Positions 3,090 to 58,560 of a stretch of DNA of 64,000 nt are shown in pieces. The notes beneath the pieces are model-generated. The model was not told where the DNA came from, made no database searches, and worked only from the letters and a program-made list of their open reading frames with translations. Position numbers and translations under genes: made by a program. This DNA comes from an uncultured Gemmatimonadales bacterium (GTDB lineage Bacteria > Gemmatimonadota > Gemmatimonadetes > Gemmatimonadales > Gemmatimonadaceae): positions 1,024,001 to 1,088,000 of the forward strand of contig CAWKNZ010000002.1 in NCBI GenBank assembly GCA_963851265.1, given 5' to 3'. Numbering within the stretch: position 1 is the first letter of the stretch; each line of letters opens with the position of its first letter.

Positions 3090-6000
3090 ATGCTCAAGTC
3101 ACTCGTCAACCGCGTATTCGGCACCCGGCACGACCGGGAGCGCCGCCGTGTTCAGCCCATCGTCGACGAAATCAACCGCGAGTACGAGCGGCTGCAGGGC
3201 GTGTCGGATGAGGAACTGCGCGGGCAGACGGCGAAGTTCCGCGGGACGCTCCGCGAACGGACCGCGGAGCTCGAGGCGCGAGTCGCCGAGTTGAAGGCGT
3301 CGAAGCACGCCGCGGCCGACTCTGCCGAGCGCGAGGCGATCGACGCCGCGCTCTCGGGCGTGGACGGGCGGGGCGGCGCCGAGCGCGAACTGTTCGACGC
3401 GATCGGCGAGGTGCTCGACGAGATCCTCCCCGAGGCGTTCGCGACGGCGCGCGAGGCCGCGCGGCGGTTGTGCGGGTCCACCGTGCGCGTGACCGGGCGC
3501 GAGTTCGCGTGGGACATGGTGCACTACGACGTACAGCTCATCGGCGGCTTCCAGCTGCACGACGGCAAGATCGCGGAGATGGCGACGGGCGAGGGCAAGA
3601 CGCTCGTCGCGACGCTGCCGCTCTATCTCAACGCACTCGCCGGGCGTGGCGCGCACCTCGTCACGGTCAATCCGTACCTGGCGCGCCGCGACTCGCAGTG
3701 GATGTCGCACCTGTTCAACTACCTCGGGCTGACCGTCGGCTGCATCGACGACACGGAGCCCGGGACGCCCGAGCGACGCGACGCCTACGAGCGCGACATC
3801 ACGTACGGCACCAACAACGAGTTCGGCTTCGACTACCTGCGCGACAACATGGTGACGTCGCTGGACCAGAAGGTCCAGCGGCCGCACTGGTTCGCGATCG
3901 TCGACGAGGTCGACTCGGTGCTGATCGACGAGGCGCGGACGCCGCTGATCATCTCGGGCCCGGTCGGTAACGACGGCGACGTGCTCTACGGCGAGCACAA
4001 CGAGAAGGTCGCGCGCCTCGTGCGGAAGCAAAACGAGCTCGCGAACGTGCTCGTCGGGGAGGGCGAGCGCGCGCTCGCCGCGAAGGACACCGCGACCGCG
4101 GCGCTGGTGCTCTACAAGGCCCGGTTAGGCGCGCCCAAGAACCGCCGCCTGATGAAGGTGATGCAGGGCGAGGGCGTGCAGCAGCTCGTGCAGCGGATGG
4201 AGCTCGACCACATCGCCGACCGCAAGCTGCCCGCCGCCAAGCAGCAGTACCGCGACCTCGAGGACGACCTGCTGTACGTGCTCGACGAGCGCGGCCACAC
4301 GGTCCACCTGACCGACCGCGGAGTGGACGCGCTCTCGCCCGAGCGCCACGACGAGTTCATGCTGCCGGACATCTCGCTCGAGGTGCACCGCATCGAGCAC
4401 GACCCGGACATGGAGCCCGCGGAGAAGCTCGAGGCGCGCCGCGCGGTGGAGATGGAGTACGCGCGCAAGAGCGAGACGCTGCACGTGATCCACAAGCTGC
4501 TGCAGGCGTACTCGCTATACGAGATCGACGTCAACTACGTCGTCACCGACGGGCAGGTGCTCATCGTGGACGAGTTCACGGGCCGCACGATGCCGGGCCG
4601 CCGCTGGAGCGAGGGGCTGCACCAGGCGGTCGAAGCGAAGGAGCACGTGCAGGTGAAGGGCGAGACGCAGACGCTCGCGACGATCACGATCCAGAACTAC
4701 TTCCGACTCTACGAGAAGCTCGGCGGGATGACGGGCACCGCCGAGACGGAGGAGAACGAGTTCCACGAGATCTACAAGCTCGGCGTCGCGGTGATCCCGA
4801 CCAACCGCGACATCGTCCGCGACGATCGCCAGGACTACATCTACAAGACGCGACGCGAGAAGTACGTCGCGATCGTGGAGGAGACGCGGCGCCTGCACGG
4901 CATCGGGCTGCCGGTGCTCGTCGGCACGACGAGCGTCGACGCGTCCGAGACGTTGTCGCGCCTCTTCCGGCAGGCCGGCCTGCCGCACGAGGTGCTGAAC
5001 GCCAAGCAGAACGAGCGCGAGGCGGAGATCGTCGCGCAGGCGGGCCAGCCGGGCGCGATCACGATCGCGACGAACATGGCCGGCCGCGGCACCGACATCA
5101 AACTCGGCGCGGGCGTCACCGAGCCGCGCCCGAGCGTGGTCAAGGACCTCGATGGGAAAGACGTGCCGGTGACCGAGGTCGGTGGTCTGCACATCATCGG
5201 GAGCGAGCGGCACGAGAGCCGGCGCATCGACCGGCAGCTGCGCGGGCGCGCCGGACGCCAGGGCGACCCGGGCGCGTCGCAGTTCTTCCTGTCGCTGGAA
5301 GACGACCTGATGCGCCTGTTCGGCTCGGACCGCATCGCGAAGCTGATGGACCGGCTCGGCGCGCAGGAGGGTGAGGTGCTCACGCACCCGATGATCACGC
5401 GCTCGATCGAGGGCGCGCAGAAGCGCGTCGAACTGCAGAACTTCCAGAGCCGCAAGCGCCTGCTCGAGTACGACGACGTGATGAACCAGCAGCGCGAGGT
5501 GGTCTACTCGCTCCGGTCGTTCGCACTCGACGGCGGCGAGGAGCTCAAGGGCGAGTCGCGCAAGATGGTCGAACGCGCGCTCGCGCGGCGGGTCGAGACG
5601 GCGTTAGGCGAGTTCGATCCCGAGAACCCGGAGTCGTGGGACCCGGCGCTCCTCCGCCAGGAGCTGCTGATGCACTACCTCGTCTCGGTGCCCGAGTTCG
5701 AGGCGGGCGAGGACGGGACCGAGCCGGAGCGGCCGGGCGCGGTCGCGGACGCGCAGGAGTTCGCGCGGGTCGCGGGCCTCGCGGCCTTCGACCGGAAGCT
5801 CGGCGAGCTCGACGAGGTGCAGGACGAGGCCGGCGTCGGGTTCAGCGAGCGCCTGCTCTCGCTCGTGATGCTCAACGTGCTCGACGAGAAGTGGAAGGAC
5901 CACCTGCACGACCTCGACCAGCTGCGCGCCGCGATCCACTACCGGTCTTGGGGGCAGAAGGACCCGCTCGTCGAGTACAAGCAGGAGGCGTACACGATGT

Positions 6001-57304: not shown

Positions 57305-58560
57305 CCGACCACGGCGCAAGCCTCGGGAACGGCGCGGGCGCGAACGGGCAGTCCCTCCCGCGGGTGGTGGCCGACCCTGTCGGGGGAGGAACCTCCGGCA
57401 GCGTGCCGACCGCGCTCCGCGTCGCTGCCATTCTCGCGCGCGGCTGGCGGCGCGTACTCGCGATCGCACTCGCCACGACGGTCGCGGCGACGGCGGCGGC
57501 CGCATTCTTCCCGCAGACGTACGTCGCGGGGACGCTGCTCGTGCCGTTCGCGGGGTCGTCGCACAGTTCGCTCGCGAGCGCGGGCCTGCCGAGCGGAGTC
57601 GCGGGGCTGCTCGGGAGCGTCGGGAGTTCCCCGGGGGAGCGGCTCCTCAGTTCGGTGCTCTCCTCGGTGCGGCTCTTCGAGGCCGTGTCGCGCCGGGCGG
57701 TTCGCGCACCGCGTGAGTCGGAGATCGTCGACCACGTGCTGCGGAAGGGTGTGCGGGTGGTGCACAACCCGGACGGATCGATCGTGATCCAGGTGAGCGC
57801 GCCGACGCCCGAACTCGCCGCTCGCATCGCGAACACGTATCCGCCAGTGCTCAACGCCGTGCTCGCGCGGCTGAGCGCGGAAGGGGCGGCGGTGAAGCGT
57901 TCGTATCTCCGGACGCAGCTCGACACGGCGGACGAGCGCCTAACGTCGTCGGAGCGGAAGTTCGTCGAGTTCGCCCAGCAACGAACCGCCCCGGCGCCCG
58001 AACAGCAGGCGCAACGCACGCTCGACGCGGCCGCGAGCCTGCAACAGCAGATTTTCGAGCAGGAGGCGGCGATCGCGCAGCTGCGGCGCACGGCGACTGT
58101 CGACAACCCGGAGCTTCGAGCTGCCGAGGCGCTGCTCGCGACGCGCCGCGGACAGCTTCGCGAACTGACCAACGGCGGTGGACCGCAGCGCTCGGTGTTC
58201 GTCCCGGTCGAGCGCGGTCCGGCCCTCCGCGTCGCGTCGACCCGCGTCGAGCGCGAGTACCAGCAGGATCTGCGCGTCTACGCATCGCTCGCGGCGCAGC
58301 TGACCGATGCGGAGATCGACGAGACCAACTCGCTCCCGGTGTTGACCGTCCTCGACCCGGCGCGCGAGCCGGGCGATCCGACTCTCACCGTTCCGGTGGC
58401 GGCGCTGCTCGGGCTCGTCTTCGGGCTCGTGCTCGGCGCCGCCGTCGCGATGGTCCGTGATGCCTTTGCGCGCCTGCGGGGCCGCCCCGACGCCGCGCCG
58501 TATTTCGCCGCGTTCACGCGCGGCGGTACGCGCGAGCCGGCTGCGGTGCAGCGCTCGTGA
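57301..58560 (+). CDS. Polysaccharide co-polymerase / chain-length protein (Wzz/KpsE-like, no kinase domain)
   Basis: Two terminal TM segments around a coiled coil; VLDPAREP Pro motif before the Gly-rich second TM. Confidence 0.8.
   Translation: MTDHGASLGNGAGANGQSLPRVVADPVGGGTSGSVPTALRVAAILARGWRRVLAIALATTVAATAAAAFFPQTYVAGTLLVPFAGSSHSSLASAGLPSGVAGLLGSVGSSPGERLLSSVLSSVRLFEAVSRRAVRAPRESEIVDHVLRKGVRVVHNPDGSIVIQVSAPTPELAARIANTYPPVLNAVLARLSAEGAAVKRSYLRTQLDTADERLTSSERKFVEFAQQRTAPAPEQQAQRTLDAAASLQQQIFEQEAAIAQLRRTATVDNPELRAAEALLATRRGQLRELTNGGGPQRSVFVPVERGPALRVASTRVEREYQQDLRVYASLAAQLTDAEIDETNSLPVLTVLDPAREPGDPTLTVPVAALLGLVFGLVLGAAVAMVRDAFARLRGRPDAAPYFAAFTRGGTREPAAVQRS

What the first reader, a model, noticed from the sequence alone, without database searches (positions are those of the whole stretch)
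4124..57944. Heptamer GTTAGGC/GCCTAAC is written into genes through rare codons, suggesting an iterated DNA signal
Seen: GTTAGGC on + at 4124, 5603, 8390, 12446, 20146, 36676, 38032, 45671, 46340, 48737 and 49681; its reverse GCCTAAC at 15959, 33723 and 57938; variants GTTAGG[A/G/T] at 29969, 38155 and 40462. All 14 + strand hits are in frame as TTA-GGN (Leu-Gly) across 10 unrelated genes. By eye I find only about 6 other TTA codons in the window, so roughly two thirds of TTA codons sit in this word, while Leu-Gly is normally CTC/CTG-GGC here. The reverse hit at 57938 uses another rare codon (CTA) and the one at 15959 forms a TAA stop, which points to a DNA-level signal rather than a codon-pair effect. 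Flanks fit Y-GTTAGGC-R in 13 of 14 exact hits. A rough base-composition estimate gives only about 2-fold excess, so the codon argument is the strong one. Inference: a genome-wide motif analogous to Chi, KOPS, DNA-uptake sequences or HIP1, or a methyltransferase or nucleoid-protein site. It also matches the integron core GTTRRRY, but no attC structures are present.
Basis: partly seen in the sequence, partly recalled or inferred. Interest (0 to 1): 0.75.

Follow-up and report, generated by a model that had tools for sequence, protein, structure and literature searches.

The report
Genome-wide GTTAGGC word, reader unknown
This soil bacterium, many of its relatives and some of their phages keep the exact DNA word (C)GTTAGGC written through ordinary genes against their own codon habits, which likely marks DNA as "self" for a still unidentified DNA-reading protein, much like the uptake tags of Neisseria and Haemophilus.

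Summary
The window holds 14 GTTAGGC against 2.2 expected, and 11 of its 21 TTA codons are TTA-GGC. The genome holds 1,762 copies, and 1,000 of its 1,295 TTA codons precede GGC.

The word is enriched 8-25 fold over synonymous-codon shuffles in every open frame and both orientations, and it also covers stop codons and spacers. The C at -1 and R at +7 hold in every class. It is therefore a double-strand DNA word, not a codon-pair effect.

It shows no replication polarity, while a GGGNAGGG control does, so Chi- and KOPS-like roles are rejected. No RecC or AddB was found.

Copies avoid each other below 200 bp. They are conserved 5-6 fold better than other rare codons, and they turn over by synonymous Leu changes.

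Among 201 Gemmatimonadaceae genomes, 55 are rich and 122 poor. A poor genome carries no substitute word.

The word equals this family's integron attC core. Integron integrase does not track it, and that gene is broken in this genome. Three phage contigs carry the word in structural genes.

My best reading is a DUS/USS-like self tag with an unknown reader (0.35). An intracellular tag is nearly as likely.

This scan had already found the word on other DNA: 89 notes in at least 23 genomes.

The parts
4124..4130 (+). Word in secA, read CGG-TTA-GGC. It is the only copy with G at -1.
   Evidence: conserved in G004 and G001
5603..5609 (+). Word in secA, read GCG-TTA-GGC.
   Evidence: G004 has GCTCGGC here, G001 keeps the word
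8390..8396 (+). Word in the relA/spoT-type gene, read GCG-TTA-GGC.
   Evidence: kept in G004, GCTGGGC in G001
12446..12452 (+). Word in tsaE, read GCG-TTA-GGC.
   Evidence: kept in G004, GTTGGGC in G001
15959..15965 (-). Word on the - strand. On the + strand it reads GCC-TAA-C and supplies the TAA stop of the NAD-dependent epimerase gene (14981-15964).
   Evidence: kept in G004 and G001
20146..20152 (+). Word in an OmpA-family gene, read GCG-TTA-GGC.
   Evidence: GTTGGGC in G004, CCTCGGC in G001
29969..29975 (+). Near-copy GTTAGGA (ATG-TTA-GGA) at the start of a small ORF. G004 has the exact word at the aligned place.
33723..33729 (-). Word on the - strand inside a + strand TPR gene, read ATG-CCT-AAC (Pro-Asn).
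   Evidence: not aligned in G004 or G001
36676..36682 (+). Word in the biotin carboxylase gene, read GCG-TTA-GGC.
   Evidence: kept in G004 and G001
38032..38038 (+). Word in ftsK, read TTG-TTA-GGC.
   Evidence: GCTCGGC in G004, CCTCGGC in G001
38155..38161 (+). Near-copy GTTAGGG in ftsK, read TTG-TTA-GGG.
40462..40468 (+). Near-copy GTTAGGT (AGG-TTA-GGT) in gene 40232-41059. G004 has the exact word at the aligned place.
45671..45677 (+). Word in alaS, read CTG-TTA-GGC.
   Evidence: kept in G004, GTTGGGC in G001
46340..46346 (+). Word in alaS, read GCG-TTA-GGC.
   Evidence: kept in G004, GGTAGGC in G001
48737..48743 (+). Word in a short-chain dehydrogenase gene, read GCG-TTA-GGC.
   Evidence: ACTCGGA in G004, kept in G001
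49681..49687 (+). Word in the asparaginase gene, read CCG-TTA-GGC.
   Evidence: kept in G004 and G001
57938..57944 (-). Word on the - strand inside + strand gene 57301-58560 (no Pfam family), read CGC-CTA-ACG.
   Evidence: GGCTCTC in G004, not aligned in G001

Best explanation
C-GTTAGGC-R is a double-strand DNA-level word, kept in every open reading frame, both orientations, stop codons and spacers of this genome. It is likely a 'self' tag read by an unidentified sequence-specific DNA-binding protein, most probably to bias DNA uptake and recombination toward own-kind DNA as DUS/USS do.

Shown here:
- The word is exact.
- It is neutral to strand and to replication direction.
- Its copies are spaced apart.
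- It is kept far better than other rare codons.
- It is gained and lost by synonymous changes at conserved Leu-Gly (or Pro-Asn) sites.
- Lineages either have it or lack it.
- It is spelled like the family's integron attC core.
- Phages carry it.

Inferred:
- A protein reads it.
- Carrying a copy every 1-3 kb is favoured, by selection or by an uptake-plus-recombination drive.
- Once one copy serves a stretch, a second copy nearby adds little, which would give the short-range avoidance.

For: - DNA level, not translation. Counts against synonymous shuffles: s3 991 vs 40.1, a3 200 vs 18.8, a2 71 vs 9.1, s1 24 vs 1.1. Use of permissive sites: 991 of 10,846 (sense Leu-Gly) against 200 of 1,450 (antisense Pro-Asn). 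The same flanks hold in genes, over stops and in spacers.
- Exactness. There are 1,762 copies, against 8-64 for each one-letter neighbour that keeps the TA step. 1,762 of 1,925 TTAGG lie inside the word.
- No polarity. In C2:152-915 kb the word runs 131 forward to 153 reverse, while GGGNAGGG runs 91 to 42. In C7 the word runs 163 to 135 against 82 to 30.
- Spacing. There are 46 gaps under 200 bp against 130 expected, with an excess at 0.5-3 kb.
- Maintenance. The TTA of TTA-GGC is kept at 7 of 11 (G004) and 5 of 10 (G001) same-residue sites. Pooled rare codons are kept at 84 of 781 and 65 of 710.
- Permissive machinery in G000. ComEC is present, as are three PilT, a PilQ-like secretin and ComEA next to PilB/PilT. 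ComEC is found in 52 of 55 rich genomes. The three genera with no ComEC in any sampled genome (g25, g51, g70; 11 genomes) are all poor.
- A slight dialect shift between genera. In G000, position 7 is C in 0.95 and -2 is T in 0.14. In G012, position 7 is C in 0.74 and -2 is T in 0.38.
- True DUS are likewise highly conserved and sit in permissive places of core genes (PMC2397512, abstract and passages read).
Against: - Three phage contigs with hallmark genes carry the word inside those genes at 0.8-2 per kb. True DUS are scarce in acquired DNA (PMC2397512).
- The distribution is patchy: 55 rich, 24 middling and 122 poor of 201 genomes. It differs even within genus g56, where G122 has 66 copies and its three congeners have 3,479-4,141. 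DUS/USS are family-wide.
- A poor complete genome (G066, 400 kb sampled) has no substitute word.
- ComEC, ComEA and pilus genes are also present in poor genomes, so they do not discriminate.
- No ComP_DUS match was found in G000, though that model also rang in none of the 14 control genomes.
- Competence is not documented for this phylum in the papers listed.
- The identity with the integron attC core is not explained by a plain DUS model.
Confidence: 0.35

Rival explanations
1. The word would be read inside the cell. It would be a self tag or binding site that benefits any DNA replicating in these hosts, for example by restraining a nuclease or defence system, or by serving a chromosome-handling protein. 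The reader would be a gene that is gained and lost between lineages, and phages would copy the host's tag.
For: Three phage contigs carry the word in portal, terminase, capsid and tape-measure genes. L144 has 35 in 17 kb. L271 has 20 against 0.79 from shuffles. L223 has 12 in 14 kb. Phage L144 shares the G012-type flanks: -2 is T in 0.40 against 0.38 in G012 and 0.14 in G000. The presence or absence pattern is patchy, even within genera, as is usual for defence genes. There is no substitute word in poor genome G066. The largest word-free stretch in G000 (45,086 bp, about 5e-5 by an exponential model's figures) surrounds parAB and two parS-like palindromes.
Against: No reader was found. RecC and AddB were not found in G000. 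There is no polarity. The parS hole is not repeated in G004, G001 or G012. A tag that must first be written thousands of times by point mutation is hard to start unless each copy has a small independent benefit. No precedent for a non-polar protective tag is known to me (recalled). One of the three phages has an integrase (L223), so at least that one could acquire words as a prophage.
Confidence: 0.3
2. The word would be a half-site (R box) for the integron integrase or a related tyrosine recombinase, which would bind or recombine at it across the chromosome.
For: The word matches the 7-bp integrase motif GTTRRRY (PMC10127599, passage read). G000's own attC-like sites end in GCGCCTAACG...CGTTAGGCGC, with the same flanks as the genome-wide word. 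In word-poor relatives many of the few copies are -/+ pairs 83-125 bp apart in arrays, which is attC-like. An independent 8-mer would match the local attC core by chance with odds of about 3e-5 (my arithmetic).
Against: Integrase above the curated cut-off is found in 35 of 55 rich, 13 of 24 middling and 67 of 122 poor genomes. Among genomes at least 90% complete it is 27 of 39 rich against 58 of 97 poor (odds ratio 1.5, p 0.33, not corrected for kinship). In the richest genus, g9, 1 of 5 genomes has it. In G000 the only integrase gene is split by an inserted serine-recombinase gene. G000 holds only two other SAM-like N-domains, both Xer-like. Recombination sites inside essential genes would be harmful.
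Confidence: 0.1
3. The word would be produced by a sequence-specific mutation or repair bias, such as a very-short-patch-like repair or a targeted deaminase, rather than by any benefit of carrying it.
For: Phages share the word, as expected for a process that acts on all DNA in the cell. Many orthologous alternatives differ only by transitions, such as GTTGGGC and GCTGGGC. TTG-GGC is raised, at 487 against 309 expected.
Against: The changes run from GC to AT in a 73% GC genome, the opposite of T:G to C:G patch repair (recalled mechanism). The commonest alternative, GCTCGGC, needs a transversion. A blind writer would not avoid placing copies within 200 bp of each other (46 against 130). CTG is depleted before all four Gly codons alike, so there is no specific drain of a precursor. 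Use falls with codon cost (13.8%, 9.1%, 3.8%, 0.7%), as expected for a balance between benefit and cost.
Confidence: 0.07
4. The word would be a polar chromosome signal: Chi for RecBCD/AddAB, or KOPS for FtsK.
For: It is an over-represented exact 7-8-mer. An ftsK gene with a gamma domain lies in the window.
Against: The word shows no polarity where GGGNAGGG is clearly polar. Its orientation follows gene strand only. RecC and AddB were not found in G000, which is 94% complete.
Confidence: 0.02
5. The pattern would be a translation-level effect: a preferred TTA-GGC codon pair or a tRNA context.
For: 991 of the 1,367 copies in called genes or over their stop codons read TTA-GGC in the sense frame.
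Against: Enrichment is equal or higher in antisense frames after correction for opportunity. Copies lie over stop codons and in spacers with the same flanks. The requirement for C at -1 crosses the codon border.
Confidence: 0.01

Closest known systems
DNA uptake sequences: DUS of Neisseriaceae (receptor ComP) and USS of Pasteurellaceae
   Same: Both are short exact words, hundreds to thousands of copies, on both strands without replication polarity. Both sit mostly inside ordinary genes at permissive residues, are highly conserved yet turn over, and are spaced apart. Flanking preferences shift slightly between genera. Sources; PMC2397512 abstract and passages; PMC3630211 and PMC3868556 seen only as listing and start of abstract.
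   Different: Here the word is 7-9 bp rather than 10-12 bp (DUS/USS lengths recalled). It is patchy within one family and even within genera. A poor relative has no substitute word. Phages carry it at host-like density. It is spelled like the integron attC core. Competence is unproven and no receptor is known.
Integron attC / attI core site GTTRRRY bound by IntI
   Same: The spelling is identical, flanks included, to the R' end of this genome's own attC-like sites. It matches the motif given in PMC10127599.
   Different: The window's copies are single words inside conserved reading frames, not parts of attC palindromes. The abundance does not follow the integrase gene, and that gene is broken in this genome.
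Chi (RecBCD/AddAB) and KOPS/SRS (FtsK/SpoIIIE)
   Same: All are over-represented exact oligomers spread along the chromosome.
   Different: The word has no replichore polarity. No RecC or AddB was found.
HIP1 of cyanobacteria
   Same: Both are hyper-abundant octamers written into genes (recalled).
   Different: HIP1 is a palindrome (recalled). This word is asymmetric.

Membership tests
DUS/USS | A hyper-abundant exact short word on both strands, without replication polarity | tested here: met
   There are 885 forward and 877 reverse copies. No polarity where GGGNAGGG is polar. One-letter neighbours are rare.
DUS/USS | The word biases DNA uptake or transformation | not testable with these tools
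   This needs uptake assays with DNA with and without the word in a word-rich strain.
DUS/USS | A cognate receptor (ComP minor pilin in Neisseria) | tested here: inconclusive
   PF16732 gave no match in G000, but it also rang in none of the 14 control genomes.
DUS/USS | Uptake machinery is encoded (type IV pilus, ComEA, ComEC) | tested here: met
   G000 encodes ComEC (C2:1510102), three PilT, a PilQ-like secretin with E 4e-74, below the cut-off, and ComEA next to pilus ATPases. The same genes occur in poor genomes, so this is permissive only.
DUS/USS | [quoted passage not shown] | tested here: not met
   Three phage contigs carry 12-35 copies in 14-20 kb, inside structural genes.
DUS/USS | Shared by the whole family as dialects | tested here: not met
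   Of 201 genomes, 55 are rich, 24 middling and 122 poor. G066 has no substitute word. Only a mild flank shift separates G000 from G012.
Integron attC core / IntI site | Spelling GTTRRRY | tested here: met
   GTTAGGC fits the motif, which is given in PMC10127599.
Integron attC core / IntI site | Part of an attC imperfect palindrome beside a cassette | tested here: not met
   The window's copies are single, in frame, in conserved genes. attC-like pairs exist only in arrays on C6 and C10 and at a few other places.
Integron attC core / IntI site | Depends on an integron integrase | tested here: not met
   Integrase occurs in 35 of 55 rich against 67 of 122 poor genomes. It is split in G000.
Chi | Orientation bias with replication, and a RecBCD or AddAB reader | tested here: not met
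KOPS/SRS | A strong skew pointing to the terminus | tested here: not met
   The word runs 131 to 153 and 163 to 135, where GGGNAGGG runs 91 to 42 and 82 to 30.
Methyltransferase target | The word is methylated | not testable with these tools
   This needs kinetic or current-signal data from long-read runs.

The most novel reading that the evidence does not exclude
A so far unknown intracellular self-tag system uses the integron recombination core (C)GTTAGGC as a genome-wide mark. A mobile, unidentified reader imposes the word on whole chromosomes. Lineages gain and lose it, and their phages imitate the tag to pass as self.
Probability: 0.3. Interest if true: 0.9.

Novelty: new variant of a known kind. 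Interest (0 to 1): 0.7.

Why it matters
Genome-wide 'self' words read by proteins are known from very few bacterial groups. To my recollection these are DUS in Neisseriaceae, USS in Pasteurellaceae, and Chi/KOPS-type polar signals.

Here a common, little-studied soil family carries such a word at up to 1.3 copies per kb, against strong codon bias. Three features match none of the known systems:
- the word is either present or absent, lineage by lineage;
- phages carry it;
- it is spelled exactly like the integron cassette recombination core.

It would either extend sequence-specific DNA uptake to a new phylum, possibly tied to cassette capture, or reveal a new way in which cells and their phages mark DNA.

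I found no paper describing this. One search covered the word itself and listed mostly primers. One search covered the word with 'integron'. One search searched Gemmatimonad, integron and attC. In one search, none of the 10 listed papers on uptake sequences mentions Gemmatimonad.

Tried and rejected
- Word-free zone at parS as a general rule. The zone is real in G000 (45 kb). It is not repeated in G004, G001 or G012. It is not a foreign import either, because identity there is 0.81-0.82, as in the window.
There is no association.
- Dialects in poor genomes. None was found in G066, but only one poor genome and 400 kb of it were sampled.
- Two ComEA paralogues as readers. The 199-aa one is in all 5 genomes tested. 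The 130-aa one is in poor G066 and only faintly in G012.
- ComP_DUS, RecC and AddB gave no match in G000.
- A stand-alone integrase-type N-domain protein does not exist in G000.
- Relatives of the phage portal protein in viral contigs. Only the query's own contig came back.
- Viral contig L086 has dispersed words but no hallmark phage gene, so I did not count it.
- Viral contigs L121, L104 and L105 are attC arrays. L079, L103 and L125 hold the word inside longer repeats in low-GC DNA. I did not count any of these as the same phenomenon.
- Very-short-patch-type repair runs in the wrong direction of change.
-, a word look-up in earlier notes, returned nothing.
- My gene calls are a simple ORF and codon-score scheme (3,719 genes, 88% of the genome). 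The 'intergenic' class of 395 may include missed genes.

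
Full report
**The observation**

The window is G000:C2:1024001-1088000 of a 4.60 Mb, 12-contig, 73% GC genome. 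Earlier notes of this scan place it in the soil Gemmatimonadaceae. One search finds the 14 reported GTTAGGC (11 on +, 3 on -) against 2.24 expected from dinucleotide shuffles.

With my own gene calls (long ORFs scored by codon log-odds; 3,719 genes, 88% of the genome), every + strand copy reads xxG-TTA-GGC. The hosts are secA (2 copies), a relA/spoT-type gene, tsaE, an OmpA-family gene, the biotin carboxylase gene, ftsK, alaS (2 copies), a short-chain dehydrogenase gene and the asparaginase gene.

The three - strand copies read as the GCC-TAA stop of an epimerase gene, ATG-CCT-AAC in a TPR gene, and CGC-CTA-ACG.

The window's coding sequences hold 21 TTA codons: 11 TTA-GGC, 3 TTA-GGN and 7 others. 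In the 51 genes wholly inside the window there are 13 words, against 1.07 in within-gene synonymous shuffles (largest 5 of 200).

**Genome-wide counts**

The genome holds 885 forward and 877 reverse copies. Of 1,295 TTA codons, 1,000 precede GGC; 76 would be expected from codon usage.

TTAGG is the most over-represented 5-mer under a maximal-order Markov model (O/E 3.14), and 1,762 of 1,925 TTAGG lie inside the word.

Every one-letter neighbour that keeps the TA step is rare, at 8-64 copies against 1,762. The flanks are C at -1 (0.79; T 0.14) and G or A at +7 (T 0.05).

**Is it a DNA word or a codon effect?**

Copies by class:

| Class | Copies |
|---|---|
| Sense xxG-TTA-GGC | 991 |
| Antisense G-CCT-AAC | 200 |
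| Antisense GC-CTA-AC | 71 |
| Sense GTT-AGG-C | 24 |
| Across a TAG stop | 81 |
| Outside my gene calls | 395 |

From, the density outside gene calls is about 0.72 per kb, against 0.34 per kb in genes.

Against 20 synonymous shuffles the four stop-free classes expect 40.1, 18.8, 9.1 and 1.1. All are therefore enriched 8-25 fold.

The strong sense bias disappears when amino-acid opportunity is counted:

| Permissive site | Used | Share |
|---|---|---|
| [xxG]-Leu-Gly (sense) | 991 of 10,846 | 9.1% |
| [xxG]-Pro-Asn (antisense) | 200 of 1,450 | 13.8% |
| CTA frame | 71 of 1,884 | 3.8% |
| GTT-AGG frame (two rare codons) | 24 of 3,488 | 0.7% |

C at -1 (0.74-0.92) and the near absence of T at +7 hold in most classes, including spacers and stop overlaps. 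The word is therefore C-GTTAGGC-R in double-strand DNA, and its use falls as codon cost rises.

**No polarity**

Word orientation follows gene strand. As a positive control I used GGGNAGGG (consensus recalled). It is polar: 91 forward to 42 reverse in C2:152-915 kb and 82 to 30 in C7. It flips near C2:1.37 Mb, which is probably the terminus, about 300 kb beyond the window. In the same stretches the word runs 131 to 153 and 163 to 135.

No RecC or AddB was found in G000, which is 94% complete. Chi- and KOPS-like roles are rejected.

**Spacing**

The mean gap is 2,592 bp. Gaps under 200 bp number 46 against 130 expected from an exponential model. Gaps of 0.5-3 kb are in excess.

The largest word-free stretch (45,086 bp, C1:182,876-227,962) holds gidA, parA, parB and mnmE, plus two perfect parS-like palindromes. 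By one search's figures such a gap has a chance of about 5e-5.

It is not repeated elsewhere:
- G004 has words at -2.0, -1.7 and +6.0 kb from parB.
- G001 has them at -5.5, -3.5 and +5.3 kb.
- G012, another genus with a canonical parS, has 135 words in 112.8 kb, some within 1 kb of parB.

Identity between G000 and its congeners there is 0.81-0.82, as in the window, so the stretch is not an import. The hole stays unexplained. I do not use it as evidence of function.

**Evolution of the copies**

The window is syntenic in two congeners at about 0.82 nucleotide identity. Of the window's words, 8 of 13 aligned copies are exact in G004 and 6 of 12 in G001. Random 7-mers are identical in 0.29 of cases.

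At sites with the same residue, the TTA of TTA-GGC is kept at 7 of 11 and 5 of 10. Pooled rare or A/T-ending codons are kept at 84 of 781 and 65 of 710, and CTT at 0 of 47.

Where the word is missing, the relative mostly has GCTCGGC, GTTGGGC or GCTGGGC. That is the same Leu-Gly spelled with another Leu codon. The window's near-copies GTTAGGA and GTTAGGT are exact words in G004.

The word is thus maintained, yet gained and lost by synonymous changes.

**Distribution among relatives**

All five genomes of the genus are rich. I counted CGTTAGGC in 201 Gemmatimonadaceae genomes of 77 genera and compared it with the reversed word as control. This gives 55 rich (ratio 3 or more, up to 1.3 copies per kb), 24 middling and 122 poor (ratio 0.5 or less), in a bimodal spread. 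By genus median, 21 genera are rich, 15 middling and 41 poor.

Genus g56 is split. G064, G164 and G196 have 3,479-4,141 copies. G122, which is 96% complete, has 66 against a control of 190.

I ran a specificity scan that compares each word's excess with the mean of its one-letter neighbours:
- In 400 kb of G000 the word comes top (7.5; next unrelated word 2.6).
- In G012 it also comes top (13.8 and 11.1).
- In 400 kb of the complete, poor genome G066 no such word appears (top 2.4).

Between rich genera the flanks shift slightly: in G000, position 7 is C in 0.95 and -2 is T in 0.14; in G012 the figures are 0.74 and 0.38.

These tallies include three unpublished genomes (G011, G050, G148). None is rich, and no conclusion rests on them.

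**The integron link**

G000 has attC-like sites of 96-123 nt ending GCGCCTAACG...CGTTAGGCGC. They lie at the start of C6, beside an integron integrase gene, and in an array of at least 13 sites with small ORFs at C10:188-215 kb. In word-poor relatives many of the few copies are such -/+ pairs in arrays. The word is therefore the family's attC core, and it fits the integrase motif GTTRRRY (PMC10127599, passage). Integrons are reported from Gemmatimonadota (PMC8618304, passage).

Yet the integrase does not explain the abundance:
- Above the curated cut-off it is found in 35 of 55 rich, 13 of 24 middling and 67 of 122 poor genomes.
- Among genomes at least 90% complete it is found in 27 of 39 rich against 58 of 97 poor (odds ratio 1.5, p 0.33, not corrected for kinship).
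- At the laxer E of 1e-40 or less the figures are 41 of 55 against 72 of 122, and 32 of 39 against 62 of 97 (p 0.04).
- In the richest genus, g9, 1 of 5 genomes has it.
- In G000 the gene is split by an inserted large serine recombinase gene.

**Phages**

Two scans of viral contigs searched for two words 250-280 or 400-430 bases apart and returned 160 loci with DNA. Most held only the two ascertaining copies; in the second scan, 42 of 80 had 3 or fewer.

I annotated four contigs with many dispersed copies:

| Locus | Size and GC | Words | Phage genes found |
|---|---|---|---|
| L144 | 16,975 bp, GC 0.61 | 35; control word 2 | Scaffold, portal, large and small terminase |
| L271 | 20 kb of an 82 kb contig, GC 0.67 | 20 against 0.79 from shuffles | Portal, major head, minor tail, tape measure |
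| L223 | 14 kb | 12 | Integrase, ParB-like, large terminase |
| L086 | 13.6 kb | 12 | No hallmark gene; not counted |

In L144 and L271 the words lie inside the structural genes. L144 shares the flank profile of G012.

Other dense loci were attC arrays (L121, L104, L105). Others again were low-GC contigs with the word inside longer repeats (L079, L103, L125), which is a different thing.

**What it most likely is**

The pattern matches DUS/USS better than any other known system: an exact word, both strands, no polarity, permissive coding sites, strong conservation with turnover, and spacing. G000 also encodes ComEC, ComEA beside pilus ATPases, three PilT and a PilQ-like secretin. ComEC is in 52 of 55 rich genomes, and the three genera with no ComEC in any sampled genome are all poor.

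Three facts do not fit a plain DUS. Phages carry the word, whereas DUS are scarce in acquired DNA (PMC2397512). The distribution is patchy, with no substitute word in a poor genome. The word is identical to the attC core.

A reader acting inside the cell, gained and lost like a defence gene and imitated by phages, explains the first two facts about as well, but it has no candidate and no precedent. A blind mutational writer is unlikely, because copies avoid each other and usage falls with codon cost.

I therefore give the DUS-like self tag 0.35, the intracellular tag 0.30, a tyrosine-recombinase site 0.10 and a mutational origin 0.07.

**Earlier work in this scan**

The same word was reported before, in 89 notes on at least 23 genomes, six of them on other windows of this genome, with the same DUS-like reading.

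New here:
- the opportunity-corrected strand neutrality;
- the GGGNAGGG polarity control;
- the rare-codon conservation control;
- the 201-genome census with integrase and ComEC cross-tabs;
- the negative dialect test;
- the failure of the parS hole to repeat in relatives;
- the broken integrase gene;
- the annotated phage contigs.

Noticed in passing
L046:1-6100 (G000:C6:1-6100) and G000:C10:188000-215025: A chromosomal integron. There are at least 4 attC-like sites beside the integrase gene on C6, and at least 13 more with small - strand ORFs running to the end of C10. The two contig ends probably join. The integrase gene is split (pieces at C6:3005-3166 and 5244-6044) by an inserted large serine recombinase gene that starts at C6:3558. 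Two identical 370-aa ORFs (C10:200950 and C10:206483) sit inside the array.
   Followed up: partly
L001:10709-13730 (G000:C1:192709 and 195715): Two perfect 16-bp palindromes of a variant parS spelling flank gidA-gidB just upstream of parAB. The same palindrome stands at the same two places in G004 and G001. G012 has the canonical spelling instead. The genome's largest word-free stretch (45 kb) surrounds them in G000 only.
   Followed up: partly
G000:C2 about 1,370,000 (some 300 kb beyond the window's end): GGGNAGGG polarity and gene strand both flip here, which probably marks the replication terminus. A Xer-like recombinase gene lies at C2:1346658-1347503. From C2:915 kb to 1,372 kb, including this window, 82-90% of coding bases are on the + strand.
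   Followed up: no
G000:C2:11208-11233: Two inverted copies of the word with 3 further matching bases on each side, separated by 6 bp. This is the layout of a tyrosine-recombinase core site. A back-to-back pair with no spacer lies at C1:176716-176729.
   Followed up: no
whole genome: CTG is about 3-fold depleted before all four Gly codons (for example CTG-GGC, 898 against 2,589 expected), while CTC is preferred there. This is a general codon-pair bias, separate from the word.
   Followed up: no
L079:133-4005, L103:716-12195, L125:5563-6504: Low-GC viral contigs (GC 0.30-0.43; two come from contigs of 118 kb and 199 kb) hold the 8-mer inside longer same-strand repeats. One repeat is about 19 letters long, spaced 110-800 bp apart. 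Another is a repeat with a roughly 108-bp period. These look like phage regulatory repeats, not the dispersed word.
   Followed up: partly
whole genome: Several 7-mers containing AGCG or CGCT with A/T ends (for example the pair with 635 copies) top the maximal-order Markov ranking at O/E 2.6-3.0. I did not examine them.
   Followed up: no
L189:2615-6300 (G000:C7:759615-763300): A ComEA-like gene (199 aa, C-terminal HHH_3 domain) lies directly upstream of a PilB-like and a PilT ATPase gene.
   Followed up: partly
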